IMG/VR virus record: IMGVR_UViG_3300050147_000044
Location: 1-24,699 of that record
DNA from: a virus
Lineage: Duplodnaviria > Caudoviricetes
Direction: 5' to 3' (one strand)
DNA: 24,699 bases
Below the pieces are notes generated by a model. It was given only the letters and a program-made list of their open reading frames with translations, was not told the origin of the DNA and did not search any database. The stretch's first letter is position 1. Every line of letters begins with the position of its first letter. The position numbers and the translations under genes are program-made. Shown one piece after another: positions 1 to 18,719 of the stretch.

Positions 1-27
1 GTCGCGCGCTGAACTCAGGGGTTAGGC
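1..27 (+). repeat. 3' half of an integron attC-like site (cut by the window edge)
   Basis: CTGAAC (L'-like), 6-bp spacer TCAGGG, then GTTAGGC (R' core GTTRRRY, 21-27); same geometry as the right arm of the 568-634 site. Confidence 0.7.
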
Positions 28-270
28 CCTCTCTGTCGCGGCCTTGGTGAAGTTCACCAGGGCCTCGATATACATGTCCGGGATGTCCTTCGGGTTGCAG
101 CCACCGTTCAGCCATTCGCCCACAGCGATGGCGCTCAGCTTGAGCTGGTGGGCGTCTTCCTTGGCCTTGGCTGCAGCGGCTCGCTCCTTCTTCAGGCGTT
201 CGCACGGCTACGCCCGGCCATCCCTCAACCACGGGTCATCGCCGCAGTCGTTCAGGCAGTCGCACTTCAC
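22..270 (-). pseudogene. Small Cys-containing hypothetical ORF (83 codons including the stop) interrupted by an in-frame TAG
   Basis: Manual translation MKCDCLNDCGDDPWLRDGRA*PCERLKKERAAAAKAKEDAHQLKLSAIAVGEWLNGGCNPKDIPDMYIEALVNFTKAATERA*. GTG start 1 nt after the upstream stop, with GGAG upstream. TAG at 208-210. Terminal TAA lies inside the attC core. Confidence 0.6.
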
Positions 271-271
271 C

Positions 272-469
272 TCAGGCTCCCACGGCCGTGGTCAGCAGTT
301 CGTGGAAGTAGGCCGCACGATCGGCAGACAGTTGGCTCACCTCGGCGGCGGCCACTTCGTCGGCGGTCATGAACTTTTGCGGGTCGGCGCGGTAGCCGTT
401 CTCCCATGCCTCGAAGGCCTTGGCCATCTGCTCGATGCTGACGTTGATGGTCTGCGTGGTATTGCTCAT
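272..469 (-). CDS. Hypothetical protein, 65 aa (MSNTTQTINV...), cassette-borne
   Basis: ATG at 469 follows GGAAAGG in the conserved leader repeat; part of ORF 272..607. Confidence 0.8.
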   Translation of the reverse strand: MSNTTQTINVSIEQMAKAFEAWENGYRADPQKFMTADEVAAAEVSQLSADRAAYFHELLTTAVGA

Positions 470-505
470 CTCGTACCTTTCCGCCAGGCTTCGCCCGGCT
501 CGTTG
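462..505. repeat. Leader repeat copy 1 (hairpin + RBS + ATGAGCAA on the minus strand)
   Basis: 41/44 identical to 964-1007; the three differences fall in the hairpin loop. Confidence 0.92.
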
Positions 506-567
506 CAAAATGCTCGGCCTGGCGGCCCAGCTTGGTGTTGTGCCCATGGTGGGCGGTGTGGTTGCTG

Positions 568-634
568 GCCTAACTCTCCGTTCAACTCGGACGTGCATGC
601 TTCGCACGCCCGCCGGTTAACTTTTGGGTTAGGC
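568..634 (+). repeat. Complete integron attC-like recombination site (67 bp)
   Basis: R'' GCCTAAC (568-574), 5-bp spacer, L'' GTTCAAC with an extra C, central stem CGTGC/GCACG, L' GTTAAC, 6-bp spacer, R' GTTAGGC (628-634). Confidence 0.85.
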
Positions 635-641
635 CCCCAAT

Positions 642-971
642 TCAGACCATGTCCACGTGCTGCATGTCGTGCTCGCTGAACTTGTTTGACACCTTGATGT
701 TTTCGTCAGTGCTCAGGGCTTGAGCGATCACGCTCATGGTGTCCAGCAGGTCGCGCTTGTCCCAGTGCCCTCGCTCATCCACCGCCTTGTTCTTCCAGCA
801 CAAGGTGAATCGGTCCTGGGGCACGGCGCGGTCCTTCGGGTGGTTGTAGCCAACACACACAAAGCTGGCTGGCGCTTTGGTCTTTGCGTCGGGCTCGTCT
901 GCGCATAGGTTGGCCACTGGTGTGCAATCTGTGCGGCAGCGCCAGCAGGTGTTCTCGGTTTGGTTGCTCAT
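642..971 (-). CDS. Hypothetical Cys-rich protein, 109 aa (MSNQTENTCWRC...)
   Basis: ATG at 971 in leader repeat copy 2; CxxC near the N-terminus; stop 7 nt from the attC core. Confidence 0.8.
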   Translation of the reverse strand: MSNQTENTCWRCRTDCTPVANLCADEPDAKTKAPASFVCVGYNHPKDRAVPQDRFTLCWKNKAVDERGHWDKRDLLDTMSVIAQALSTDENIKVSNKFSEHDMQHVDMV

Positions 972-1007
972 CTCGTACCTTTCCGCCAGGCGCTGCCCGG
1001 CTCGTTG
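964..1007. repeat. Leader repeat copy 2
   Basis: Direct repeat of 462-505. Confidence 0.92.
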
Positions 1008-1050
1008 AAAACGCCCATGCCTGCGGCATCGGCTTGTGGTTGAGGTAGCC

Positions 1051-1374
1051 TCAAAACGGAAGGTCCTTGTCGCTGGTGGCAAACCGTTCTTTGATGCGAG
1101 ACCGCATCATCGAAAGCAGCCACTCTCGGCGCTTGGCCTGGCTGTACTTGATCGCCTTGCTGGCCCATCGAATGCGGCTGGCCCAAAGCGCAGACAGCCA
1201 GCGCCCTTGCACTTGTTCGCGGGCACCGAGGTATACCCACTTGTCTTGTTTGATCGCCCAATGCGGACCGAGGATCACGGCTGGCTCACATGGATCAGGC
1301 CGGGCCTTTCTCAGCGGGTGTTGCTTTCTCCAGCGCAGGGCTCTTGGGGTGGGTGCAGCCTTTGCAATGGCCAT
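1051..1374 (-). CDS. Hypothetical basic, Trp-rich phage protein, 107 aa
   Basis: ATG 7 nt after the stop of the upstream gene; ends DLPF*. Confidence 0.7.
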   Translation of the reverse strand: MAIAKAAPTPRALRWRKQHPLRKARPDPCEPAVILGPHWAIKQDKWVYLGAREQVQGRWLSALWASRIRWASKAIKYSQAKRREWLLSMMRSRIKERFATSDKDLPF

Positions 1375-1814: not shown

Positions 1815-2069
1815 TTAGGCCTCGCTGGCTTGGCCGCGAGGTTTGTGCAGCCATGCGCTGCGCTGCTCAATGACCTCGGTTTGTGCAGGCTTGTGCACAC
1901 GGCATTCATGAGGCCGGTCGAAAGAGAAGAACTTGAAAAGCGGGCCTTGCTTGCACTGGCCGAAGCCGTGCTTGGCCATCTCGCGGGCTGAGCGCTGCGA
2001 CTTCTCGTTGGTGATGAGCGGGTGGCCGCGCAGCGTGAAGTGGTCGCAGGTAATGCATTGCTGGCTCAT
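1815..2069 (-). CDS. Hypothetical Cys/His protein, 84 aa (MSQQCITCDHF...), possibly Zn-binding
   Basis: ATGA overlap with the upstream gene; CxxCxHF...C...C pattern. Confidence 0.75.
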   Translation of the reverse strand: MSQQCITCDHFTLRGHPLITNEKSQRSAREMAKHGFGQCKQGPLFKFFSFDRPHECRVHKPAQTEVIEQRSAWLHKPRGQASEA

Positions 2070-2677
2070 GGTTTGAGCCTCTTGAAGCTGACAGCCCACA
2101 CCCAAGGGTTAAGAGCCCATGCGCCGGGGCCGTTGATCTGGTCCCACAGCTCGGCATACCACTGGCGTGGGTCAGGGCCTGCGGCCATGTTGGGGAATGG
2201 GCAGCCCTCGGCCATGGCGTCACCACGGCTGATGTCTTGCAAGCGCTCAACACGCACCTGGGTGATCTCCAGCGTGATGCGGCTGGCCCAGCGGGGCATG
2301 TGGATGCTGGGGCGCCATTTTTCTACCCAGGGCTCTCCGCCATCAGCTTGGTAGTGGATGATGGGCTTCGGGCTCTTGGTGTCATCACGCATCCACGCAT
2401 CCCATGCCCCCCAGCAATCAGGCTGGGGGGGGGCGTGGTTCTCTCTCACCCAAATCTGGTCGCCTGGCTCGCCGTAACGGCAAGGTACGGCAAAGTCGAG
2501 CAGCGAGTCGTCATCCATAGCCCAGTGATGTTTGCGAGGGTCAGGGTAGTGATAGGTGCAAAACTGAGTCGTGCCGGTCGGTGGCTGTACCTTCAGCACG
2601 CGCCTGGTCTGCGTCTTCGTGCCATCCAGGAGGGCGCGCACCATCGGTGCGCTGTAGAGCATCGGTCTTGTGATCAT
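2066..2677 (-). CDS. Conserved phage protein with ASCH/PUA-like domain, 203 aa
   Basis: Motifs MVRALLDGTKTQTRR, GDQIWVRE, WRPSIHMPRWASRITLEIT.VRVERLQDIS..DA.AEG and NPWVW; ATGA overlap with the methyltransferase stop. Confidence 0.85.
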   Translation of the reverse strand: MITRPMLYSAPMVRALLDGTKTQTRRVLKVQPPTGTTQFCTYHYPDPRKHHWAMDDDSLLDFAVPCRYGEPGDQIWVRENHAPPQPDCWGAWDAWMRDDTKSPKPIIHYQADGGEPWVEKWRPSIHMPRWASRITLEITQVRVERLQDISRGDAMAEGCPFPNMAAGPDPRQWYAELWDQINGPGAWALNPWVWAVSFKRLKP

Positions 2678-4242
2678 GCTGCTTGCTCCAGCGCTTGCCG
2701 CTCGGCGTAGTTGGCAGCCACAATCGCGCGGGCCAGCGGCGGGCATACGCTGTTGCCGCACATGCGAACCTGGGCATCCTTGGGCAGTGGCCTGCCGTCT
2801 GCGCCGCGGTCGATGATGTAGCTGTCAGGGAACCCTTGAGCCCGATAAAGTTCACGTGGCTGCAGCATGCGCATGCCGATGTCCGCGATCTCATAGTGCT
2901 GGCCAGCCACGGTCACCAGGCCAAAGCGAGGCTTGGTAGTGACCGTATGCATGGGGTCATCCAGTGGGGTGTCCTGATGGCTGCCGTAATAGGCGGTCAG
3001 GAAGGCGCTGACCGCCGCTGCATTGCCTCCGCTGGCCACGACGGTCTGCAAGGGCTTGCTGATCTGGCGGTTGCCGTGAGACCAGCGCTTGACACCTGAT
3101 GGCGACACATCACTGTGTGCCGAGTCCACCAGCAGTGGCGCCACCAGGCTGTGGTGGTCAACGCTGGTGACCGTGCCGATGGGGGCGCGCAGCTCGCTGC
3201 CGATCACGCCTGTGTAATGCTTCGCCAAAAAGGCTGTGACCAGGGCGTGCTTTGATGCCCCCGCCACCACGGTGCCCAGCGGCTTGTGCAGGCCCGGTGC
3301 GCGCGGCGCCTGACCCTCGCGCTCGCCATAGCCAGTCTGCACCAGCGTCGGGCTGCACAGCAGGTGTTCAGCCTTGCTGGTGATGGTCGACACCGGTTCA
3401 CGCATGCTGCGCACCTTGCCGCTGTCACCGTGCCCTGTGTGTCCTATGCGCACCACAAAAGGCTCGGCTGAGTTGACCACGTAGCGCATGACGCCATGCG
3501 CAATGCGGCGCAGCGTGGCTTCAGCCAGTGGCCGCTCGCGCTCAAAGATCGACGGGCACGGCAAGCTCCAGTCAATGCACTCGGCCGCGGTGCGCCAAGG
3601 CTTGAGGCTGGAGCCTCGGGCGGGCCTTTCGGCGTGGGTCGGCTCTGGCCACACGATGGGCATGCGATCGCATCGGGCCACTAGGAATAGCCGCTTGCGG
3701 ATGGTCGGGGCGCCGTAATCACAGGCGCGCATTTCGCGCCACTCGACTGTGTAGCCAAGGTTGCGCAGCCGCTGCACCCACTTGTGGAAGGTCTGGCCTT
3801 TGCGCATCGGGCAGGGTCTGCCAGACTTCAGCAGCGGCCCCCAGGTCTTGAACTCTTCGACGTTTTCCAAGCAGATCACACGCGGCCGCACCAGGCGAGC
3901 CCAGCGGATCACAACACCCGCAAGGCTGCGAATCTTCTTACTGACGGGTTTGCCCCCCTTGGCTTTGCTGAAGTGCTTGCAATCGGGCGATGCCCACAGC
4001 AGCCCCACAGGTCTGCCATCGGCCACCACGAGTGGATCGACCTCGAACACGTCGCTCACAAAGTGCAGGGTCTGCGGGTGGTTCGCTTGGTGCAATGCCA
4101 CCGCATCAGCCGCATGGTTGATGGCGATATCGACATGCCGGCCAATGGCCTGTTCTATGCCTGTGCTGGCGCCACCACCACCCGCGAACAGGTCAACAAC
4201 GAGCTCACTTGCCATCGGCAAGATGTATTGATTCGAGATCAT
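2674..4242 (-). CDS. Phage DNA (cytosine-5) methyltransferase, 522 aa
   Basis: Motif I DLFAGGGG, IV SPDCKHFS, VI ENV, VIII RKRLF, IX RMLQPRE, X GNSV. Confidence 0.96.
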   Translation of the reverse strand: MISNQYILPMASELVVDLFAGGGGASTGIEQAIGRHVDIAINHAADAVALHQANHPQTLHFVSDVFEVDPLVVADGRPVGLLWASPDCKHFSKAKGGKPVSKKIRSLAGVVIRWARLVRPRVICLENVEEFKTWGPLLKSGRPCPMRKGQTFHKWVQRLRNLGYTVEWREMRACDYGAPTIRKRLFLVARCDRMPIVWPEPTHAERPARGSSLKPWRTAAECIDWSLPCPSIFERERPLAEATLRRIAHGVMRYVVNSAEPFVVRIGHTGHGDSGKVRSMREPVSTITSKAEHLLCSPTLVQTGYGEREGQAPRAPGLHKPLGTVVAGASKHALVTAFLAKHYTGVIGSELRAPIGTVTSVDHHSLVAPLLVDSAHSDVSPSGVKRWSHGNRQISKPLQTVVASGGNAAAVSAFLTAYYGSHQDTPLDDPMHTVTTKPRFGLVTVAGQHYEIADIGMRMLQPRELYRAQGFPDSYIIDRGADGRPLPKDAQVRMCGNSVCPPLARAIVAANYAERQALEQAA

Positions 4243-4261
4243 GCGTGCCTCAATAAAAGGT

Positions 4262-4357
4262 CAGCGTGCCCGGCGCAACCCGGGCTATTTGTGCAGCTGC
4301 TACTAACGACAATGAAGGACAAGTTGCCGCACATCACCCGGGCCACCCGGGACGCTG
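4262..4357. other. Long imperfect inverted repeat / candidate structured RNA upstream of the methyltransferase
   Basis: Nested pairings on the minus strand: CAGCGT/ACGCTG, CCCGG/CCGGG, CCCGGG/CCCGGG, GTGCGGC/GCTGCAC, around a ~28-nt loop. Confidence 0.55.
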
Positions 4358-4366
4358 GTAAACGGG

Positions 4367-4618
4367 TCAGGCTGCGCCTGGTGGGAGCTTGCTGGTCACG
4401 CGCAGGTGCCCTTTGCCCTGCAGCAAGCTGCGGTAGCTGTTGATGGCAACGGCCTCAGCCTCGCGGGCCACGTTCTGCCCTACAGCAATGACCTGGCCGT
4501 CATCGGTGACGATGGCCAGCCGCGCGGGCTTGCCGTCTACCGTCACAGTGAGGCCTTCGTGGCAGACCGCTGAGATGACGACGCCGCTGATGGCGCCAGT
4601 GGGTTGGGTGCCGATCAT
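4367..4618 (-). CDS. Hypothetical phage protein, 83 aa (MIGTQPTG...)
   Basis: ATGA overlap at 4615-4618; GGAG upstream. Confidence 0.8.
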   Translation of the reverse strand: MIGTQPTGAISGVVISAVCHEGLTVTVDGKPARLAIVTDDGQVIAVGQNVAREAEAVAINSYRSLLQGKGHLRVTSKLPPGAA

Positions 4619-4932
4619 GGCTGCTCCATGCGGATGACGATGTGGCCAGCAACGCTGGTGCCGAGCTGGTCGAGCCGTGGGTTGCGCCACAGGCCATCAG
4701 AGAAGATCAGGTCGAGGTGCTGCAGCACGGTGTCTGCCGCTGCGGCCTTGTAGCCGCGGGGCACAGGCGCGGCATCGCAGTGCAGCACGATGTTTAAAAA
4801 GCCCGCTGGCTCACGGCTGAGCCATTGGCCCTCAGAGGGCAGGTCGCGCACCAGGTCAACGATCTGGCCGACCATGCGGGCATACCAAAGCAAGGGGTCA
4901 CTGCAGCCAGTAATGGCAAGGCGTTCGCTCAT
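4615..4932 (-). CDS. Hypothetical phage protein, 105 aa
   Basis: Coupled by ATGA overlaps at both ends. Confidence 0.8.
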   Translation of the reverse strand: MSERLAITGCSDPLLWYARMVGQIVDLVRDLPSEGQWLSREPAGFLNIVLHCDAAPVPRGYKAAAADTVLQHLDLIFSDGLWRNPRLDQLGTSVAGHIVIRMEQP

Positions 4933-5423
4933 GATGGGTCTCCGTCTGCGCGTTCGCGCCTACCGTCGGGCCAGATGCGCCAGCCCAGTTGCACACGGGG
5001 CAGGTCGCGGCAGTCCAGCGCGCCATCGCGGTAGACCATGGGCAGGCGGTCTGCAGGGCTCGCCAGCCGCACGATGCTGCGCGTGCGCAAGCTGGGGTCT
5101 TGCTCGATGGGCTTGAGCTGGCGCTCTGAGGCAACAAGGGGCGCAGGGGGGGGCGTGTGCGGTATGGCTGTGCAGCGCTGGTGGTCTTTGAGCCAGTAGC
5201 TGCGGCCAGACTCGGTCATACACCAGTCAAGCGTCGAGGGGCTCTGCGTGGCCAGGTCGGCGCGCTTGAGGCCCACCAGTGCGGCGCGCAGCTCGCCAGG
5301 CGTGAAGCGCATGGATGCCCGCAGGCTGCGCTGCACGATGCATGGGAACAGCAGGGGCCCGTCGCTGAACAGCAGCGCAGCGCAGGCGTAGCGGGCTGTG
5401 TCGGGCAGGTAGACGTAGCTCAT
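4929..5423 (-). CDS. Hypothetical phage protein, 164 aa; N-terminus possibly winged-helix-like
   Basis: ATGA overlaps at both ends; ELRAALVGLKRADLA...WCMTESG resembles a wHTH end (inference). Confidence 0.72.
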   Translation of the reverse strand: MSYVYLPDTARYACAALLFSDGPLLFPCIVQRSLRASMRFTPGELRAALVGLKRADLATQSPSTLDWCMTESGRSYWLKDHQRCTAIPHTPPPAPLVASERQLKPIEQDPSLRTRSIVRLASPADRLPMVYRDGALDCRDLPRVQLGWRIWPDGRRERADGDPS

Positions 5424-7513
5424 GCTATTACCTCTTCCGACGTTTGCCCTGGCAGCACTTCAACGTCTTGCTTGAGCACTGTGCTGCGGTTGGGTTTGCC
5501 GGTGCGCCAGCTCTCAACTTCGACCACGAGCGAGCCATCCCCGTTGACTTCAACAACGGTGGCAATGCGTTTGGCCTTCTTCACCTTAACCCTCTGGCCC
5601 ACCCAGTGGGCCAGCTGGCTGACATCCTTACTCTGCGCCCCTTGGGGCGCCTGGCTTTCGTCTTCCTGGGGCGACTTGTCGCCCCCTTGGCTGGCGGCGC
5701 CTATAACTTCGCCTGCCGGCGACGGAGTCTGGTGGGGTAGATCCGACTCCGATAGGTCGACGCTGGCCATGTCTTTGTTGCCGTCATACAGCTCGCGCCA
5801 CGCTACAGACTGCGCCTCGCACAGGCCTGGCAGCACCTGCTGGCTCACGTCATAGCTGTCATCGTCTGGCAGGTCCTGGATATCACCCAGCGAGATCAGC
5901 TCTGCGCACATCATGTGCAGCTGGTCGGTGTTCATCTCCATCGTGGCGTCAAACAGGTTGTCGCGCAGGCTCATGAGGCTGTTGATCTCCCAGCCCCACA
6001 GTTCGGCCATCAACGTCACCAGTTCGGCATCGTCCAGGTAGGTGGTGCCCAAGTCGATCGCCACCATGCGCAGGGCGTGCGTGTCGTCATCGATATAGCC
6101 CTGGTCCATGTAGTCCGCATGCAGCGCTTTGACCGCCTTGATGCGCCAGGCGCGGGCGTGCTGCACGCGCAGCTGGTGCACGGCGTCGTCATGCTGCTCA
6201 TCGCCGTCACCGTCGTTGGTTGGGCCATGCATGAACTGCTTGTTGCCAGTGGGGAAGGGCCAAGCTACATCAGCCTCCGTTTCAGGGCTGCGCGCAGCTG
6301 GCGTGCTGGGCTCTATGTAGCTGGTGTCGGGCTTCGTGGCCACGCTGGTGCCAAGGTCTGCCTTGGGCTTTTTGGCCTTGGGCTTGTCCTTGTCAGGGTC
6401 ATGCACCAGCAGGTCGTTGTCCCGCAGGGCTTTAATCGCCTTGGTGATCTCGACCACCTCGCGCAGCGTCTGCTCTTTGGGGTGCTCAAACAGTGCCGAT
6501 GGCTTGAGCAGCTTACCCAGCAGGCGCTGCAGGCTCTTGTCTGTGCCGGTCAGGGCTTGCATGCCCCGATCCATGTAAACGTAGTCGCCATTGAGCTCAT
6601 CGCTGGCCGTGCCGAATCTGAGCATCACGCGTGCGCCATCGCCCTCAAACACCACCAAGCCAGCTTCGCGCGCCTTGCTTTTGATGCGCTCGTTGAAGGC
6701 CAGCAGCTTGGAGGTGAAGCAATCGCCATCGGTGCAAACGTTGTCTGGCTCATCGTCAAACAAGCTGGGCTCGTTGCCGCTCATGCGTGAGCATGTCAGG
6801 CATGAGCCTGCACCCTCCAGCAGCGTGGCGTCGGTGATGGGGAACGTGGCCTTGTCAATGCGCAGGTGGAACTCTCGGCGCAGCAGCTCGCCCGCCGCTT
6901 TCACATTGATCTCGTCACCCTCTGCCGTGGCCTTGCGCAACTTGGCCAGGGCCTTGGGCTGCAGCTTGGCTGGCAGGCGCGCCAGTTTCTGCGCAATCGT
7001 GGCGTTGAACTCTTCGGCGTAGAAGGCTTCACGCAGGTCAGGCACCAGTGCCAGCAGCTTGAGCCTGTTGTAGACGTGGGTGCGGCTCTTGCCGATCTTG
7101 GCTGCCAGGTCATCGGCCGACTGGTCGGTCGCATCGGCGTGGCCGTAGGCACGCAGCAAGGCCTCGAAGCCTTCGGCCTCTTCAAGCGGGTGCAGGTCTT
7201 CACGCTGCGCGTTCTCGATCACCGCGATCTCAAGGGCCTCGGTGTCAGTCATCTCGCGCACGATCGACGGGACCTGGGGCAGCTCGGCCATGCAGCTGGC
7301 GCGCCAGCGGCGCTCACCCGCCACGATCTCAAAGTGCTCCACCTCGCCCACCATGGTGGGCCGTGTCAGGATCGGCTGCAGCACGCCATGCCGCTTGATG
7401 TTGTCGGCCAGCTCTTTCATGGCCTGCTCTTTGAATCGGCGGCGTGGGTTGAGGTGCGAGCGCAGCACAAGCTGGATGTCCAGCAGCTTGGGTAAGTCAA
7501 AAAGCGGGGTCAC
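5420..7513 (-). CDS. ParB/RepB/Spo0J family protein with long C-terminal extension, 697 aa
   Basis: NPRRRF, GVLQPI, IVAGERRWRA (box II), IENAQREDL.PLEEA and HTH LAAKIGKSRTHVYNRLKL. Confidence 0.93.
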   Translation of the reverse strand: MTPLFDLPKLLDIQLVLRSHLNPRRRFKEQAMKELADNIKRHGVLQPILTRPTMVGEVEHFEIVAGERRWRASCMAELPQVPSIVREMTDTEALEIAVIENAQREDLHPLEEAEGFEALLRAYGHADATDQSADDLAAKIGKSRTHVYNRLKLLALVPDLREAFYAEEFNATIAQKLARLPAKLQPKALAKLRKATAEGDEINVKAAGELLRREFHLRIDKATFPITDATLLEGAGSCLTCSRMSGNEPSLFDDEPDNVCTDGDCFTSKLLAFNERIKSKAREAGLVVFEGDGARVMLRFGTASDELNGDYVYMDRGMQALTGTDKSLQRLLGKLLKPSALFEHPKEQTLREVVEITKAIKALRDNDLLVHDPDKDKPKAKKPKADLGTSVATKPDTSYIEPSTPAARSPETEADVAWPFPTGNKQFMHGPTNDGDGDEQHDDAVHQLRVQHARAWRIKAVKALHADYMDQGYIDDDTHALRMVAIDLGTTYLDDAELVTLMAELWGWEINSLMSLRDNLFDATMEMNTDQLHMMCAELISLGDIQDLPDDDSYDVSQQVLPGLCEAQSVAWRELYDGNKDMASVDLSESDLPHQTPSPAGEVIGAASQGGDKSPQEDESQAPQGAQSKDVSQLAHWVGQRVKVKKAKRIATVVEVNGDGSLVVEVESWRTGKPNRSTVLKQDVEVLPGQTSEEVIA

Positions 7514-7824
7514 AGCTTGAACTCCTGTCGGTTGCGCGCCTGGTCTTCAACGAGCCGTTTCAGGCCCTCCAGATCGCCGGGGGTTGAGGCCATGGCGTTG
7601 CCCTCGGGGTCGTAGGCCATGTAGATGAAGCGCAGGCCCGCACCGATTTGAGCGGGCTGCAGCTGAACGAGTCGGATGTCATAGCCCGTGGCGCCAAGCT
7701 CCAGGCGGTTGCCTGGCATGGCAGCCCACTGGCTGTCGGGTCGAGCGCTTCTGCGTGCCCGTGAGCGTGCGCGCGCCACCAGTTGCTTGACGCGCACGAT
7801 CACGATCCAGGGGTATCGCCGCAT
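7510..7824 (-). CDS. Hypothetical phage protein, 104 aa
   Basis: GAAAGG upstream; GTGA overlap with the ParB start. Confidence 0.75.
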   Translation of the reverse strand: MRRYPWIVIVRVKQLVARARSRARRSARPDSQWAAMPGNRLELGATGYDIRLVQLQPAQIGAGLRFIYMAYDPEGNAMASTPGDLEGLKRLVEDQARNRQEFKL

Positions 7825-7835
7825 GGGGGCCTTTC

Positions 7836-8135
7836 TCAGTCGTCGTCGCGCTCGCCAGCGGCGAGGCGCTTGTGATCCATGGCAGGGGCCAGGGTGGGGG
7901 TGGGTGCCTGGTATGCGCGTGCCGGTGCGGGCGTGCGGCGGGCCTGCGTGCGCTGCCCGAGCGCAGCGGCTACGCTGGCGCGCCGTGCATGCCGGTAGGC
8001 TTCGAGCATCACAAAGCGGTGGCAGATCGGGTCTGCCATGGCTGCCTCATAGCCCTCGGGCCAGGTGCTGCGCTTGCGGCGCTCGTAAGCGGCGCGGCTT
8101 TGCTCTTCGCTGATCACGACTTTCCAGCAACCCAT
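7836..8135 (-). CDS. Hypothetical phage protein, 99 aa (MGCWKVV...DHKRLAAGERDDD)
   Basis: AAGGAG RBS before the ATG at 8135. Confidence 0.78.
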   Translation of the reverse strand: MGCWKVVISEEQSRAAYERRKRSTWPEGYEAAMADPICHRFVMLEAYRHARRASVAAALGQRTQARRTPAPARAYQAPTPTLAPAMDHKRLAAGERDDD

Positions 8136-8146
8136 GGCAATCTCCT

Positions 8147-8368
8147 TCAGGCAGTGGTGACGCCAGGCATCAACAAGTGCTTGGCCTCGGGGCCGCAAGC
8201 GCCGCCGAGATCGCGTAAGCTGCGCACGTCTCGGCTGGGTTCGCGGGCGAAATCGGGGCAGCTGCACAGCTGCCCATGTGTCGTGCAGCCGTGTGCACAC
8301 AGCTCGCAAGCGCGCAGACGCAATGGCACCAAGTGAATGCGCATCAAGCGCTCAATGGCGGGGCTCAT
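8147..8368 (-). CDS. Hypothetical Cys-rich protein, 73 aa
   Basis: GGAG RBS; CELCAHGC...CSC...CGPEA. Confidence 0.7.
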   Translation of the reverse strand: MSPAIERLMRIHLVPLRLRACELCAHGCTTHGQLCSCPDFAREPSRDVRSLRDLGGACGPEAKHLLMPGVTTA

Positions 8369-8549
8369 GGCGTGCGTTCTCCAAGGCGTAAAGCTCGGCG
8401 CGCAAGGCTGCAAGCTCGGCGCGCAACACAGCCAGCTGCACGGGCCCTTCAGCCAGGCATTCGCGCAGCATTTCTTCGTCCAGCTGGGCCCAGCGAATGC
8501 GTAGCCGCAGCAGCAGTGCGCGGCAACGGTGAGTGAGTTTGCTCAGCAT
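8352..8549 (-). CDS. Hypothetical helical protein, 65 aa
   Basis: GGGAG RBS; overlaps both neighbours in the operon. Confidence 0.65.
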   Translation of the reverse strand: MLSKLTHRCRALLLRLRIRWAQLDEEMLRECLAEGPVQLAVLRAELAALRAELYALENARHEPRH

Positions 8550-8809
8550 GGCCGCATCACTCCCATGTCGCCCTGCTGAGTCAGGCCCAGCTGCAGCCCG
8601 CCTCGTTCAGCCAGTTCGGTGTTCAAGGCCATGAACATGTCGGCCCGGTGCTCTTCACACGCCAGGTCTGACTCCAGCCGCTCAATACGCTGCATGGCGT
8701 CGTCAAGCTGCAGGCGCAAGGCCAGCGTGTGCTCGCGCAAGTGCTCAAGCTCCCACGTGTCCAGCTTGCGCTGCAGTGCGTTGAGTTCGCGCAGGCTCAT
8801 GGTGCTCAT
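8543..8809 (-). CDS. Hypothetical coiled-coil protein, 88 aa
   Basis: GGAGG RBS; heptad-like Leu spacing. Confidence 0.78.
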   Translation of the reverse strand: MSTMSLRELNALQRKLDTWELEHLREHTLALRLQLDDAMQRIERLESDLACEEHRADMFMALNTELAERGGLQLGLTQQGDMGVMRPC

Positions 8810-8958
8810 GACGGCCTCCGCTCAATGATCAGCACGACCAGGCGCGCATTGGGGTAGAGCAGGTCTACCTGGTGCTCCGCATCGCTGCGGCTGCTGAAGC
8901 GGGCGGGCAGGGCAATGCGCTCGCCTGCGCTGGTGATGACGGTGGCGCGGCACTGCAT
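8806..8958 (-). CDS. Small hypothetical protein, 50 aa (MQCRATVITSAGERIALP...), absent from the ORF track
   Basis: Manual translation; GGAGGTGA RBS; ATGA overlap at 8806-8809; fills the operon gap. Confidence 0.72.
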   Translation of the reverse strand: MQCRATVITSAGERIALPARFSSRSDAEHQVDLLYPNARLVVLIIERRPS

Positions 8959-8961
8959 GGC

Positions 8962-9336
8962 TCACCTCCAGTGCTGCACGGCCAGCCAGATGCTGCCCAC
9001 CAGGGCGCTGACTGCGATGCCGACCGTGCCGCCAAACAGCAAGCTGGCACCCCAGCCGGGTGCGATGTAGACGTCTTCGTCGGGTGCTGCGCCGCTGCCG
9101 TGGGGGGGCTCATCTACGGGCATGGTGTCGGCAAAGCCGTCATCAGCCGTGAACTCGATTGCCTTGATCGTGGACGACTCATGCAGTGCGCGCTCGGCGC
9201 GGCGCACTGCCAGCAGTGGCTCCACGCGTATGGCCTGCGGCACGAAGCCGCGGCCCTGGGTGAGTTGGGTGTCGATCAGGTAGCGGCCTGGCTCGCTTTG
9301 CCAGGCCACCTCGGCTTTGTGGATGATGTCTTGCAT
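8962..9336 (-). CDS. Hypothetical protein with C-terminal transmembrane helix, 124 aa
   Basis: GAGGTG RBS; hydrophobic LLFGGTVGIAVSALVGSIWLAV. Confidence 0.72.
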   Translation of the reverse strand: MQDIIHKAEVAWQSEPGRYLIDTQLTQGRGFVPQAIRVEPLLAVRRAERALHESSTIKAIEFTADDGFADTMPVDEPPHGSGAAPDEDVYIAPGWGASLLFGGTVGIAVSALVGSIWLAVQHWR

Positions 9337-9337
9337 C

Positions 9338-9526
9338 TCACACCTCGCCGATTCGTTCGACCAGGGCCTGCAAGCCATCTTCGGGGATTGCGGCGCGCCG
9401 GTCTGCGCCCATGACGGCGATCAGACTGTTGTGCAGATCCACCTCTGCGACAATCGCCCGCAGTTGCAGGGCAATGATTCCACGTGCAATGCCGTGGGTA
9501 ATGTTGACTTGATCTTCGTTGCTCAT
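9338..9526 (-). CDS. Hypothetical protein, 62 aa, first gene of the leftward early operon
   Basis: GAAGG RBS; directly downstream of the PL-like promoter. Confidence 0.7.
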   Translation of the reverse strand: MSNEDQVNITHGIARGIIALQLRAIVAEVDLHNSLIAVMGADRRAAIPEDGLQALVERIGEV

Positions 9527-9550
9527 GTGTGCCGCCTTCTGTTGCGTTTG

Positions 9551-9607
9551 GTAGTAGCGCGATGAATAGTAGCACTACGCAAAGATAGGCGGCAATAGTG
9601 GCGCAGC
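9551..9607 (-). promoter_or_regulatory. PL-like promoter with three 13-bp operator-like sites (OL)
   Basis: Minus strand TTGCCG-N18-TACTAT with TG extension. Sites GTAGTAGCGCGAT (9551), ATAGTAGCACTAC (9566), ATAGTGGCGCAGC (9595). Confidence 0.72.
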
Positions 9608-9616
9608 AAAAAGGGT

Positions 9617-9642
9617 AAAAAAAATCCCCGCATAGCGGGGAT
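9617..9642 (-). terminator. Rho-independent terminator after the moron gene
   Basis: ATCCCCGC-TAT-GCGGGGAT followed by a T run on the minus strand. Confidence 0.88.
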
Positions 9643-9659
9643 GGGGTGTTGCGTGAACG

Positions 9660-10094
9660 TCAGTTTGACAAGCGAGCCACCTGGTCAGATATCCACCGCT
9701 TCGCTTCGACGCGATCGGTGAACGCAGCCCTGAGCACGCCGGCCCTCAGCTGTAGGTGCGTGTAGCGGCTGGCGTCTGCCAGCAGCCGCTCGGGCACAAC
9801 GATGGCCGTTGGTATGTCCGCTGGCAGGCCCGACCGCACAACATCTGTGTAGATCGTGAGCAGATCCATCGCGGTCATGCTCGGGTCGCTCCGATCGTAA
9901 AACGCAATGGCGGCGAGCACGCTCGGTCGGTCTTGCGGTGGGATACCGTAAAACTTTTGGAGCCCGGCTATCACGCTCGCACTTGATGTTCTCCCACTGA
10001 ACTCGAAGTACGCGACCGACGCTTTGATGCTCAGCCGCACGTGTGTGCCTGGACTGCTCTCCTCAATGACTACCATTACTACCTCCTGAGCCAC
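9660..10094 (-). CDS. Moron-like hypothetical protein, possibly STAS/SEC14 (SpoIIAA-like) fold, up to 144 aa
   Basis: Flanked by terminators. PTAIVVP...AFTDRVEAKRWI resembles the STAS/SEC14 C-terminus. Start may be the ATG near 10076, which has CAGGAGGT upstream. Confidence 0.65.
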   Translation of the reverse strand: MAQEVVMVVIEESSPGTHVRLSIKASVAYFEFSGRTSSASVIAGLQKFYGIPPQDRPSVLAAIAFYDRSDPSMTAMDLLTIYTDVVRSGLPADIPTAIVVPERLLADASRYTHLQLRAGVLRAAFTDRVEAKRWISDQVARLSN

Positions 10095-10260
10095 TAGTGT
10101 TGTAGTGAGTGGGAGTGCTCGTCAATGGCTGCTGCGTGGCCGGTCGATAGCCCGCGATAGGCGCCAAGCGTGACGCGCGTCACACTTCGTGCTTCATACC
10201 TGCCTTGATCCGGTAGGAGTTGGCTTTTCGAAAGTGCAATTTGACGCAAATTTGAACCGC

Positions 10261-10284
10261 AAAAACCCCATGAATGCGGGGGTT
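10261..10284 (-). terminator. Probable terminator downstream of the repressor gene
   Basis: AACCCC-loop-GGGGTT followed by TTT on the minus strand, 17 nt after the repressor stop. Confidence 0.55.
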
Positions 10285-10301
10285 ACTGTGTCAAACGTTT
10301 G

Positions 10302-10883
10302 TCACTTTTCAGCTGCTTTGGCCGCTGCAATGGTTGAAATGCAGCGCACGAACACACGCAGCCTGGCGGGGTTTTTTGCTGACAGGGTGTCGAATTCAAG
10401 GGCCAGCTCCAGCGCCTCTTTGGACAGCTTGGTACGGTCAACGGCACTCAGCAACGCCTCACGGCGAGCGCGTGCATCTTCAATGTCGGCGTCGGGGGCC
10501 GTGTCCACATCAATGCCTGCAGCAGCGAGCGAGTAGGCGATGGGGCCAGGCGATTCTGCCCGCGGCTGGGCCCGGTGTTCGCCATCGGCTGTTGGGGAGG
10601 TGTGCACACCTGCGCGCTTGGCCTGGGCTGCCCAGTAGGGCGAAAAGTCGGCAATGTCACAACCCAGTGCTCGGGCAAACGAAATGGCGGTTTCCAGGCT
10701 GAGCTTATTGATGCCGTTCAAGTAGTGGCTGAGGTTGCCTGCGCTCTTGAACCCATGCGCTGCCGCGAAGGTCTTCCGGTCGAAACCCTCAGTTGCCTCG
10801 CGTCCGCTGTAAATGCTCTTCAGGCGCTTGGAGTCGCCTTCCTTGTCATACCTCATCTCATCGATGGTATCGACTGGCGCCAT
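10302..10883 (-). CDS. cI: cI-like phage repressor (XRE HTH), about 193 aa, no S24 peptidase domain apparent
   Basis: NLSHYLNGINKLSLETAISFARALGCDIADFSP resembles the lambda cI N-domain; divergent from cro; start is 10883 or about 10856. Confidence 0.85.
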   Translation of the reverse strand: MAPVDTIDEMRYDKEGDSKRLKSIYSGREATEGFDRKTFAAAHGFKSAGNLSHYLNGINKLSLETAISFARALGCDIADFSPYWAAQAKRAGVHTSPTADGEHRAQPRAESPGPIAYSLAAAGIDVDTAPDADIEDARARREALLSAVDRTKLSKEALELALEFDTLSAKNPARLRVFVRCISTIAAAKAAEK

Positions 10884-10967
10884 AGCAACACTACTGTTTT
10901 GTATCGCGCTACCCCCTTCAGAACGTGTAGTATCGCTATTGTCTTTAGGTGGTAGTGACGCTACACT
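10882..10967. promoter_or_regulatory. OR-like operator cluster and PR-like promoter
   Basis: Sites ATAGCAACACTAC (10882), ATCGCGCTACCCC (10903, degenerate), GTAGTATCGCTAT (10927), GTAGTGACGCTAC (10952). Plus strand TTGTCT (10939)-N17-TACACT (10962). Confidence 0.78.
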
Positions 10968-10974
10968 ATTTTTC

Positions 10975-11298
10975 ATGACTGATCCTCTGTCGACATTCAA
11001 ACGCGCTCGTGACCTGCTTGGTGGCACCGGTAAAACGGCATCTGCTCTAGGCGTAACCGGCGACGCAGTGCGCAAGGCCGCAAGCGGAAGCATGGCGATC
11101 CCGACCGAATGGGCGGTCTTCTTCGACTTTACCACTAGCGGCACTATTGCTGCGGAAGAGCTGGTTCCCCGGGTGCGATGGGCTCGTATGCCCGATGCGA
11201 CCTGGCCGGCTCCGGCAGGTCGTCCGGTGGTCTTGCACGACGAGCTTGTATGCAGGTCGCGTGAGGCCTTGGGCGTTTTGCTTGCTGCGGTGGCGTGA
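10975..11298 (+). CDS. cro: Cro/YdaS-like HTH regulator, 107 aa
   Basis: ARDLLGGTGKTASALGVTGDAVRK...TSGTIAAEELVPRVRW; divergent from cI. Confidence 0.82.
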   Translation: MTDPLSTFKRARDLLGGTGKTASALGVTGDAVRKAASGSMAIPTEWAVFFDFTTSGTIAAEELVPRVRWARMPDATWPAPAGRPVVLHDELVCRSREALGVLLAAVA

Positions 11299-11342
11299 GC
11301 GCCGCATGTTTCTGGGAGGAAACACCTCATGAAATCCAGGCA

Positions 11343-16262: not shown

Positions 16263-18362
16263 ATGGACCACGGCGAACTGCTCAAGGTCATTGACGCCGC
16301 TGGGCCTGAGCTGCGGCAGGCGCTCGATGCCGTGATCCGCCGCGGCCTTGAGCCGCTGCAAGTGCGCGACCCGATGCGCGCCAGCGAGTGGGCCAGCGAG
16401 CACTTCTACTTGTCGGCTGAAAGCAGCTACGAAGAGCAGCGCTGGCAGGCCTACCCATTCCAGCCCGCAATCCTGGATGCGATGGGATCGGATGACATTG
16501 AAGAGGTCGATGTCATGAAGTCGGCCCGGGTGGGATACACAAAGATGGCCTTGGCCGTGATGGGCTACATGGCCGAGCACAAGCGCCGCAATCAGGTGCT
16601 GTATCAGCCTACAGACGATGACCGCGATGAGTTCGTCACGACCGAGCTGGAACCGATGCTGCGCGACGTGCCGGTGATGCGCCGCGTGTTTCCAAAGTTC
16701 AACCGCAAGAGCAAGGACAACACGCTCAAGGTCAAGCGGTTCATGGGTTGCCTGCTGCACACGCGTGGCGGCAAGGCGGCGAAGAACTACCGGCGCTTGA
16801 CGGTCGACACAGTCATCCTTGATGAGCTGGACGGCTTCGATGCTGACGTCGAGAAAGAGGGCTCACCGGACAAGCTCGCATGGAAGCGCACCGAGGGTGC
16901 CGTCTTCCGCAAGATGATTGCGGGCACCACGCCCAAGCTGCGCGGCTTCAGCCTGATCGAGGCGCGGGCCGATCGCGCCGAGCTGCGCATGAGGTATCAG
17001 GTGCCCTGCACCCACTGTGGTGAGCGCTTCGCTTTGACCTGGGGCGGCAAGGATGTGGCTACCGGCATGAAGTGGGTCAACGATGACCCGGACAGCGTGG
17101 CCCAGGTCTGCCCTCACGATGGGTGTGGCGGCTTGATGACGCAGGCCGACTACCTGCGCGCCTGGCAGCATGGCCGATGGGTGGCACAAGACGGCACATG
17201 GATAACAGCCGACTTTCGCTTCATCAGGATCGACGGCAATGAGCGCCCCGCACCGCGCCACATCGCATTCCACGTGTGGACGGCCTACAGCCCTCAAACG
17301 ACTTGGTCAGCCATCGTGCGCGAGTTCATGGCTGCAGCCGACAAAGCCAAGCGCGGTGACAAGTCCGACCTCAAGACCTTTGTGAATACAACGCTTGGCG
17401 AGACCTGGGAAGAAGAGGTCGAGAAGACCGAGGCATCAGCACTGGCGCAGCGCGCGAAGAAGTCGGCCACACCCTACAGCGTGGGCACTGTGCCGCGTGG
17501 TGGCTTAGTGCTGGCCACGGGTGTCGACGTGCAGTCAGACCGCTGGGAGCTGGTGACTTGGGCCTTTGGCCGTGGTGAGGAAATGTGGGCTATCGATTAC
17601 ACCGTGGTCTACGGCAACCCAGGCGATCAGCGCGAGTGGGAAGCCAAGCTGGCGCCGATGCTGGAGCGGCAGTTTCAGCACCGCAATGGCCCGTGGATGG
17701 CAGTCAAGGCGGCAGCCATTGACACGGGTGGACACTTCACACACCAGGCCTATGTCTTCACGCGCAACCACAGCAACAAGAGCTGTTACGCGATCAAAGG
17801 CGAAAGCCGACCGGGCCAGCCGATCAAGGGCCGCAAGTCATTCGTGGATGTGAACGAGCGGGGGCGCGTGATCAAGCGTGGTGCCTCGCTTTGGCTGGTC
17901 GGTACCGACACGGCCAAGGACTTGCTGCATGGACGCTTTGCCGTGGCCCAGCCGGGGCCCGGCTACGTGCACTTCCCGCTGGACATGCCTGCAGATTTTT
18001 ATACCCAGATCACGAGCGAAAGCCGCGTGCTGGCGCGTACTGCCCGGGGCGATGACTACCGCTGGATCAAGCCCTCAGGCGCACGCAACGAAGTGCTTGA
18101 CTGCACGGTGTACGCACTGTTCTGCGCGCAAGCGCTTGACTTGCACAAGTACTCAGACCTGATGTGGCAGCGGCTGGAGTCCGCGCTGGAGCCGGATCTG
18201 TTCGACGCCGCCGCACCACCCCCTGCACCCACTTTGCCGATGGGCAACACCATAGTGCCCGTCACCTCGGCGCAGCATGCGCCCGTACCAGTGCAGTCGA
18301 GTGCACGGATGGTGCCTGTGTCATCAACCCCCATGGCCCCACCAGAATGGAACCGACTGTGA
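16263..18362 (+). CDS. Terminase large subunit (lambda gpA family), 699 aa
   Basis: KSARVGYTK Walker A, ILDELDGF Walker B, GTTPK, nuclease motifs GVDVQ, IDTGG, RNEVLDC. Confidence 0.97.
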   Translation: MDHGELLKVIDAAGPELRQALDAVIRRGLEPLQVRDPMRASEWASEHFYLSAESSYEEQRWQAYPFQPAILDAMGSDDIEEVDVMKSARVGYTKMALAVMGYMAEHKRRNQVLYQPTDDDRDEFVTTELEPMLRDVPVMRRVFPKFNRKSKDNTLKVKRFMGCLLHTRGGKAAKNYRRLTVDTVILDELDGFDADVEKEGSPDKLAWKRTEGAVFRKMIAGTTPKLRGFSLIEARADRAELRMRYQVPCTHCGERFALTWGGKDVATGMKWVNDDPDSVAQVCPHDGCGGLMTQADYLRAWQHGRWVAQDGTWITADFRFIRIDGNERPAPRHIAFHVWTAYSPQTTWSAIVREFMAAADKAKRGDKSDLKTFVNTTLGETWEEEVEKTEASALAQRAKKSATPYSVGTVPRGGLVLATGVDVQSDRWELVTWAFGRGEEMWAIDYTVVYGNPGDQREWEAKLAPMLERQFQHRNGPWMAVKAAAIDTGGHFTHQAYVFTRNHSNKSCYAIKGESRPGQPIKGRKSFVDVNERGRVIKRGASLWLVGTDTAKDLLHGRFAVAQPGPGYVHFPLDMPADFYTQITSESRVLARTARGDDYRWIKPSGARNEVLDCTVYALFCAQALDLHKYSDLMWQRLESALEPDLFDAAAPPPAPTLPMGNTIVPVTSAQHAPVPVQSSARMVPVSSTPMAPPEWNRL

Positions 18363-18700
18363 GCGACCGCCCTGAGTACCTCGAAGACGATGCAGCTGTG
18401 CAGCTGGAGGCTGACATCGAAGGGATCATCGTAGAGTGGATCGGCATGAAGCCCCAGCTGGCGGGCCTGCACGCCAAGCTGATCGTTCAGGGCATGCGTG
18501 ATCGGCTCGGAGGCAAGCGGGTGTACATCCCGGCGCCGCGCTTGCGCAGGCACATGCAAGAGGCACAGCAGTCGCGGGATCAGCAGATCGCGGCCATGTT
18601 CAACGGTCGAAACATCAAGGAAGTGATGCGGGTGTTCGATGTCTCACGCCGCACCGTGTACAACGCGCTGGCCCGCACACGCCCCAAGTTGTGCACGTGA
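18359..18700 (+). CDS. Mor/C-family transcription activator, 113 aa
   Basis: LGGKRVYIP...RDQQIAAMFNGRNIKEVMRVFDVSRRTVYN; GTGA overlap with the terL stop. Confidence 0.85.
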   Translation: MSDRPEYLEDDAAVQLEADIEGIIVEWIGMKPQLAGLHAKLIVQGMRDRLGGKRVYIPAPRLRRHMQEAQQSRDQQIAAMFNGRNIKEVMRVFDVSRRTVYNALARTRPKLCT

Positions 18701-18719
18701 CCGCATAGACGTTGCACAA
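18689..18719. promoter_or_regulatory. Dyad upstream of the capsid gene; candidate late-promoter activator site
   Basis: TTGTGCA-N17-TGCACAA; AACACT lies 7 nt before the ATG at 18742. Confidence 0.45.

What the first reader, a model, noticed from the sequence alone, without database searches (positions are those of the whole stretch)
1..1050. Integron-type attC sites delimit gene cassettes inside a phage early operon
Seen: 568-634 has full attC architecture (RYYYAAC, 5-bp spacer, L'' with an extra C, stem, L', 6-bp spacer, GTTRRRY), and 1-27 is the right arm of a second site. The unit between the crossover points (22-628, 607 bp) has complementary ends, GTTAGGCC and GGCCTAAC, as an excisable cassette should. 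Established: attC sites are single-strand hairpin substrates of IntI integrases and normally occur in integrons or integrase-less clusters. Inference: the distal end of this phage's leftward operon is a cassette array, continuing left of the window, that swaps accessory genes by attC recombination using a phage- or host-encoded IntI-like enzyme. No integrase is visible here.
Basis: partly seen in the sequence, partly recalled or inferred. Interest (0 to 1): 0.9.

Follow-up and report, generated by a model that had tools for sequence, protein, structure and literature searches.

The report
Phage integron cassettes with reversed genes
This temperate phage carries genuine integron-type DNA hairpin sites between its small early genes, but the genes face the opposite way from bacterial cassettes, a layout shared by many phages, some with their own integron enzyme, which likely lets phages swap accessory genes as modules.

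Summary
568-634 is a real attC: it folds as the bottom-strand hairpin with the extrahelical G, and a covariance model built from bacterial sites scores it 38.6 bits on the minus strand against 8.3 on the plus. 1-27 is the arm of a second site, seen whole in a related phage. The reversal is the rule in phages: 106 of 121 cassette units beside viral IntI genes are reversed, against 28 of 123 in bacterial genomes. Of 55 viral IntIs, 48 fall in one clade, usually behind a conserved attI-like motif and before the phage integrase. Related phages exchange the window's genes at the predicted crossover. No IntI or attI is in the window, eight related array records lack IntI, no excised circle was seen, and some exchanges lie outside the core. 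Phage attC clusters are published (Qi 2023); I found no paper on the reversed layout. This scan noted it before on other phage DNA. New variant of a known kind.

The parts
1..27 (+). Right arm of attC site 1 (L' 8-14, spacer 15-20, R' 21-27; predicted crossover G21|T22), cut by the contig end
   Evidence: 27 of 28 bases match the complete site L207 7175-7241, which scores 39.3 bits
22..628 (-). Cassette unit B, 607 bp; read in the coding direction: attC 2, leader, ORF B1, ORF B2
   Evidence: window 18-456 recurs at 86% in L198 and ends at a core followed by another attC
22..270 (-). ORF B2, Cys-rich start, stop codon TAA inside the R' core of site 1; broken by an in-frame TAG at 208-210
   Evidence: open in L198; no other letter in four runs covering it; no Pfam match for the part after the stop
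272..469 (-). ORF B1 (P0001, 65 aa), unknown function; equals the C-terminal half of a longer gene in L198 and L199
   Evidence: directly followed by an attC in L199
462..545 (-). Conserved two-hairpin leader ending in the ribosome site and ATG, copy 1
   Evidence: 79-nt repeat D1; 8 of 13 predicted pairs show compensatory change in 13 copies
568..634 (+). Complete attC site 2 (top strand +, recombinogenic bottom strand = coding strand); predicted crossover G628|T629
642..971 (-). ORF C (P0002, 109 aa, unknown function); a full attC-bounded cassette in L044, here without its own upstream attC
   Evidence: window 611-1053 is 98% identical to L044; 182 homologues; no PHROG or Pfam match
964..1047 (-). 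Two-hairpin leader, copy 2; homology to the L044 cassette fades near 1045-1053
2066..11330 (-). Context: leftward early region (DNA methyltransferase, ParB-like protein, repressor at 10302-11330), the likely source of transcription into the array
   Evidence: PHROG matches; promoter not located

Best explanation
The sites are true integron attC sites at the promoter-distal end of a temperate phage's early operon, they bound cassettes whose genes are reversed relative to bacterial cassettes, and these cassettes are likely excised and swapped by an integron integrase (IntI) supplied from outside this contig. Shown: attC anatomy and polarity, gene orientation, exchange of neighbours at the core in related phages, and a phage-associated IntI clade with the same reversed arrays. 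Inferred: IntI recombines the folded bottom strand, here the coding strand, at AA|C in R'; the mobile unit is attC + leader + gene, with the gene's stop codon in or near the next core; cassettes enter at an attI-like site beside the phage's own integrase and are read from the phage early promoter coming from the far end, so no Pc is needed. In this phage's family the enzyme most likely comes from the host or a co-resident phage. Homologous exchange between the shared leaders probably adds new phage genes behind existing attC sites.
For: Covariance model 38.6 vs 8.3 bits by strand. Orientation of units between model hits upstream of intI: viral loci 106 reversed, 10 canonical (9 from one locus, L096), 5 unclear of 121; bacterial loci 28 reversed, 89 canonical, 6 unclear of 123; per locus 35/1/1 tie against 8/32/2 ties. 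PHROG matches: 36 of 106 reversed-strand ORFs, 0 of 100 opposite-strand ORFs (L096 left out). A sample chosen without IntI: 12 of 13 viral sites reversed on the R' side. L045 IntI scores 426 bits on TIGR02249 (cut-off 265), followed by an excisionase and phage integrase, in a record 100% complete. A phage integrase is the largest ORF behind intI in 36 of 56 viral loci, another phage gene in 11. One clade (SH-aLRT 96) holds 48 of 55 viral IntIs and 6 genome rows, three of them beside a phage integrase. attI-like motif in 29 of 37 clade loci against 3 of 63 other genome loci. Four pairwise comparisons switch within an interval that contains AA|C: window/L208, window/L198, window/L044, L201/L207. 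The arrays of L044, L199 and L207 end in an attI-like stretch beside a phage integrase. IntI is over cut-off in 178 of 401 genomes of Acidovorax's family; that family as host is only inferred from named homologues.
Against: No IntI and no attI in the window, which ends inside site 1. IntI in 0 of 8 related array records, two of them 90-95% complete. No circle junction in contigs of 8 runs (contigs drop rare forms). Exchanges away from R': the same attC has different flanks on both sides in L044, loose ends also cluster at the R'' end, 565-567, ORF C lacks its own attC here, ORF B1 is half of a longer gene. Three distant viral homologues of ORF C have no attC. Only 2 of 42 phage loci chosen by the neighbouring gene 2066-2677 carry sites. 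The orientation classifier is a simple amino-acid score trained on this phage; the IntI sample was drawn with patterns from one phage IntI, and the tree is a quick one.
Confidence: 0.8

Rival explanations
1. The attC sites are real by descent but now inert; genes are shuffled by homologous (Red-like) recombination between the similar attC-plus-leader repeats.
For: No IntI in 0 of 8 related array records; a shared 80-nt leader; breakpoints in the leader or at R''; a broken gene in unit B.
Against: Extrahelical G, spacers and cores are intact; four comparisons switch at the R' core; 62 of 72 viral IntI matches are full length with the catalytic motifs; a cassette is duplicated exactly core to core in L044.
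Confidence: 0.12
2. The phage captured ordinary bacterial cassettes that were inserted backwards by top-strand recombination or at off-target sites.
For: Top-strand recombination inverts cassettes (PMC5027507, introduction); phages can carry host integron pieces (PMC9892861).
Against: That would invert gene and attC together and keep the gene's stop at R''. Here attC keeps the regular polarity to intI (79 of 79 heuristic sites upstream) and only the ORF is turned; the cargo matches phage families.
Confidence: 0.04
3. The hairpins are kept as RNA signals (pausing, processing, translation start) in the early transcript, and recombination is incidental.
For: The bottom strand is the mRNA-like strand; ribosome sites and start codons often lie in or just behind the sites; the leader shows covariation.
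Against: An RNA role does not explain the IntI-specific extrahelical base, the attI-like motif or the linked intI genes; no Rfam match here.
Confidence: 0.04

Closest known systems
CALINs and integrons in phage genomes (Qi et al. 2023, PMC9892861)
   Same: attC sites between small phage ORFs, often without IntI; DNA methyltransferase cargo; five of six tested phage sites were recombined by IntI1.
   Different: The text read does not describe ORFs reversed relative to attC or a phage IntI clade. Their tested TJE1 array is canonical: bottom strand on minus, ORFs on plus. Their complete integrons are host fragments or class 1.
Regular integrons (class 1; chromosomal integrons of Betaproteobacteria): intI, attI, Pc, attC
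   Same: Same attC anatomy; same polarity of attC relative to intI; IntI of related phages passes TIGR02249 and aligns with VchIntIA, PDB 2A3V.
   Different: ORFs point towards attI/intI; intI starts shortly behind attI and is co-oriented with the cassettes; arrays sit next to a phage integrase.
Inverted-integrase integrons (Treponema type; PMC4889954 and PMC13323075, passages)
   Same: intI and the cassette genes are read in the same direction.
   Different: There intI lies on the same strand as attC; here intI and attC have the regular opposed layout and only the ORFs are turned.

Membership tests
attC site | Complementary R''/R' cores with conserved AAC/GTT, 5-6 nt spacers, length 57-141 (PMC5027507) | tested here: met
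   67 bp, 7 of 7 core pairs
attC site | L''/L' boxes with an extrahelical G on the bottom strand; bottom-strand hairpin | tested here: met
attC site | Covariance-model match | tested here: met
   38.6 bits with my own 45-site model; IntegronFinder's model was not available
attC site | Recombined by IntI, bottom strand preferred | not testable with these tools
   needs a suicide-conjugation assay
Canonical gene cassette | ORF on the top strand, ending at R'' of its own attC | tested here: not met
   ORFs are on the bottom strand and end at R' of the next site
Complete integron | intI gene linked to the array | tested here: not met
   none in the window; 0 of 8 related array records; present in other phages with the same layout
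Complete integron | attI at the array start | tested here: inconclusive
   window ends first; conserved motif in IntI phages and a similar stretch ending IntI-less arrays; function untested
Complete integron | Pc promoter reading the cassettes from the attI side | tested here: inconclusive
   reversed ORFs could not be read from it; promoter scan not above chance, 3 found vs 2.1 expected
CALIN | Two or more close attC sites, no intI nearby | tested here: inconclusive
   one whole and one cut site 540 bp apart; DNA left of base 1 is missing
Inverted-integrase integron | intI on the same strand as attC | tested here: not met
   79 of 79 upstream heuristic sites in viral IntI loci have the regular polarity

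The most novel reading that the evidence does not exclude
Temperate phages run their own mirror-image integron system and are a factory for integron cassettes: ordinary early genes are placed behind attC sites through shared leaders, and flipping an attC between its two complementary cores turns the upstream phage gene into a canonical cassette that a bacterial integron can express. One such flipped site is seen: in L044 the same cassette occurs twice with its attC exactly reverse-complemented. This would make the open question of where cassettes come from testable.
Probability: 0.2. Interest if true: 0.95.

Novelty: new variant of a known kind. Interest (0 to 1): 0.76.

Why it matters
Integrons are treated as bacterial devices whose function depends on cassettes entering in the one orientation that Pc can read. 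A phage-adapted branch with its own IntI clade, its own attI-like motif and reversed cassettes would be a site-specific mechanism for part of phage mosaicism, with cargo rich in likely anti-restriction genes (10 DNA methyltransferases, 2 Mom-like and 1 Lar-like among 36 PHROG matches). Reversed cassettes would be silent from Pc in host integrons and host cassettes antisense in the phage, so the two pools could share enzymes yet stay apart. It also offers a testable route for the birth of new cassettes, and cassette surveys that assign each attC to the upstream ORF would pair these wrongly.

Tried and rejected
Rfam: nothing in 1-1050. blastn of 1-1100 against GenBank phages: four weak matches, E 0.3. 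Metagenome scan with ORF B2: 373 candidate stretches, none confirmed. Extending the contig leftwards failed: G000 is the window and read laying does not print overhangs. No RNA holder listed. No circle joint in 8 of 24 listed runs laid; these runs share year and habitat and may be one campaign. Strict LexA box (pattern recalled): 0 of 37 phage-clade loci against 5 of 63 others, too weak to say anything about SOS control. Promoter and terminator scans were not above chance. Virus Rctr41k has an IntI-like gene but no model hit. The DNA search of 401 family genomes gave 13 weak attC or leader matches that I did not follow up. My first strict heuristic missed most sites and was replaced by the model. 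The idea that the leader is a decayed attC found no support (no model hit). Chance palindrome rejected.

Full report
Observation. The window is a 24.7-kb virus record of a lambdoid temperate phage: methyltransferase, ParB-like protein and repressor on the minus strand, primase, terminase, head and tail genes on the plus strand. Bases 568-634 have every attC element given in PMC5027507 (introduction read). The minus strand folds with the extrahelical G, more stably than all 300 shuffles. A covariance model that I built from 45 sites of integrons classed as canonical (40 from bacterial loci, 5 from L096; picked by my own heuristic) scores it 38.6 bits on the minus strand and 8.3 on the plus. Bases 1-28 match 27 of 28 bases of a complete site in phage contig L207.

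The recombinogenic bottom strand is the minus strand, which is also the coding strand. ORF C (642-971) is a real gene with 182 homologues, and ORF B2 stops inside the R' core of site 1. In canonical cassettes the ORF is on the top strand and ends at R''. So the mobile unit, read as the gene is read, is attC, leader, gene.

How general. A leader motif led to L043-L045. In L045 the array ends at an IntI (TIGR02249, 426 bits, cut-off 265), then an excisionase and a phage integrase; the protein aligns with VchIntIA over 42-350, E 2e-76. That IntI fetched 72 viral loci and the best 80 of 489 bacterial loci from a partial scan. All 79 heuristic sites upstream of viral intI have the regular polarity. 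Units between model hits, scored on both strands alike, are reversed in 106 of 121 viral cases (10 canonical, 9 of them in L096; 5 unclear; 14 duplicates dropped) and in 28 of 123 bacterial cases (89 canonical, 6 unclear). PHROGs agree: 36 of 106 reversed-strand ORFs match, 0 of 100 opposite-strand ORFs (the 12 L096 units left out; the opposite-strand ORFs are shorter). A pattern search that did not use IntI gave 13 viral sites: 12 reversed and 1 canonical on the R' side; 7 reversed, 1 canonical, 4 unclear, 1 too short on the R'' side. In a quick tree of 132 IntIs, 48 of 55 viral rows and 6 genome rows form a clade with SH-aLRT 96; three of those genome rows lie beside phage integrases. The sample is biased to relatives of one query. 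The largest ORF behind intI is a phage integrase in 36 of 56 viral loci, another phage gene in 11, a nucleotide enzyme in 1, unmatched in 8. A conserved attI-like motif precedes intI in 29 of 37 clade loci and 3 of 63 other genome loci; the motif was derived from these loci. The system is not universal: 2 of 42 phage loci chosen by a neighbouring gene have sites.

Exchange of this window's units. L044 holds ORF C at 98% identity between two attC sites. L198, from a phage that shares ParB-like and primase genes, holds window 18-456 at 86% before another attC, and the window's attC-plus-leader behind another gene. Aligned at AA|C, four pairs switch within an interval containing it: window/L208 and window/L198 differ upstream and agree downstream; window/L044 and L201/L207 agree upstream (59 of 60, 60 of 60) and diverge four bases later; L201 and L207 are 99.7% identical over 7.2 kb before that. 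In contigs of 8 runs, loose ends cluster at 625-637 and 565-567; these may come from other phages of the same habitat. Against a pure IntI model: one L044 site equals the window's with both flanks different, ORF C has lost its own attC here, ORF B1 is the C-terminal half of a longer gene, three distant viral homologues of ORF C have no attC, and no circle joint appeared.

The enzyme. The closest arrays (L044, L199, L207) end in an attI-like stretch beside a phage integrase, with no IntI in 0 of 8 records searched, while the L045 record was positive. IntI is over cut-off in 178 of 401 genomes of Acidovorax's family; named homologues of ORF C come from Pseudacidovorax and Variovorax, so a host enzyme is plausible but the host is not shown.

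Mechanism. Shown: anatomy, polarity, reversed ORFs, core-bounded differences, phage IntI clade. Inferred: IntI excises attC-leader-gene units on the coding strand and inserts them at attI next to the phage integrase; the early promoter near the repressor reads them, and intI where present, from the far end; leader-to-leader homologous exchange recruits new genes. Strand exposure matters for folding (PMC5371416, passages), but I could not relate it to phage replication.

Literature. PMC9892861 (parts 1-4 of 7, the whole main text, and supplement passages) reports 17 phage CALINs and IntI1 activity on five sites; it mentions divergent sites in one phage but not reversed ORFs, and its TJE1 array is canonical. 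I did not see its figures or Dryad file, so some of those arrays may be reversed. Inverted-integrase integrons are another layout (passages of PMC4889954, PMC13323075, PMC9668308). Passages of 10.1101/2025.06.18.660453 and PMC13366799 added nothing. Eight searches listed no paper on reversed cassettes in phages; most subscription journals are not covered. This scan's own notes report the same layout on other phage DNA; I had written this reading before seeing them, and they are not evidence.

Verdict. Real attC sites, part of a phage-adapted integron variant with reversed cassettes; activity untested. Interest 0.76.

Noticed in passing
window 462-545 and 964-1047 (minus strand); L044, L045, L198, L199, L201, L203, L208, L210: Conserved two-hairpin leader behind many attC sites, 8 of 13 pairs compensatory in 13 copies, no Rfam match. 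The middle recalls an antitermination boxA (from memory, untested).
   Followed up: partly
L044 2601-2657 and 5219-5275 (L206 4449-4505 and 7067-7123): The same 277-bp cassette occurs twice, identical core to core, with its attC exactly reverse-complemented in one copy. One contig only; an assembly error is not excluded.
   Followed up: partly
window 208-210: In-frame TAG in ORF B2; the frame is open in L198; four runs show no other letter.
   Followed up: yes
window 271-277: A core-like GCCTGAG joins ORF B1 to B2 where L199 and a contig of run X11 have an attC, suggesting a lost site.
   Followed up: partly
L049 5639-5758, L088 7062-7184, L098 3698-3801: Ribosome site and start codon lie inside the attC loop, so some ORFs begin within the site.
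   Followed up: no
L070 9532-10960; L118 11300-11371: attC sites downstream of intI as well as upstream.
   Followed up: no
L054, L062, L099, L108; L071, L079, L081: intI followed by head or packaging genes, or by a ParB-like gene, and not by a phage integrase.
   Followed up: no
L201 8095-8180; L199 6260-6345: Several bare GCCTAAC cores in a row after the attI-like end of the array.
   Followed up: no
L211 4680-5678 (Virus Rctr41k): IntI-like gene annotated xerD, co-oriented with small ORFs, with no hit of my model.
   Followed up: partly
window 18164-18712: Terminase is followed by a late-activator-like gene and then the protease-capsid gene; no portal match among the 41 ORFs scanned.
   Followed up: no
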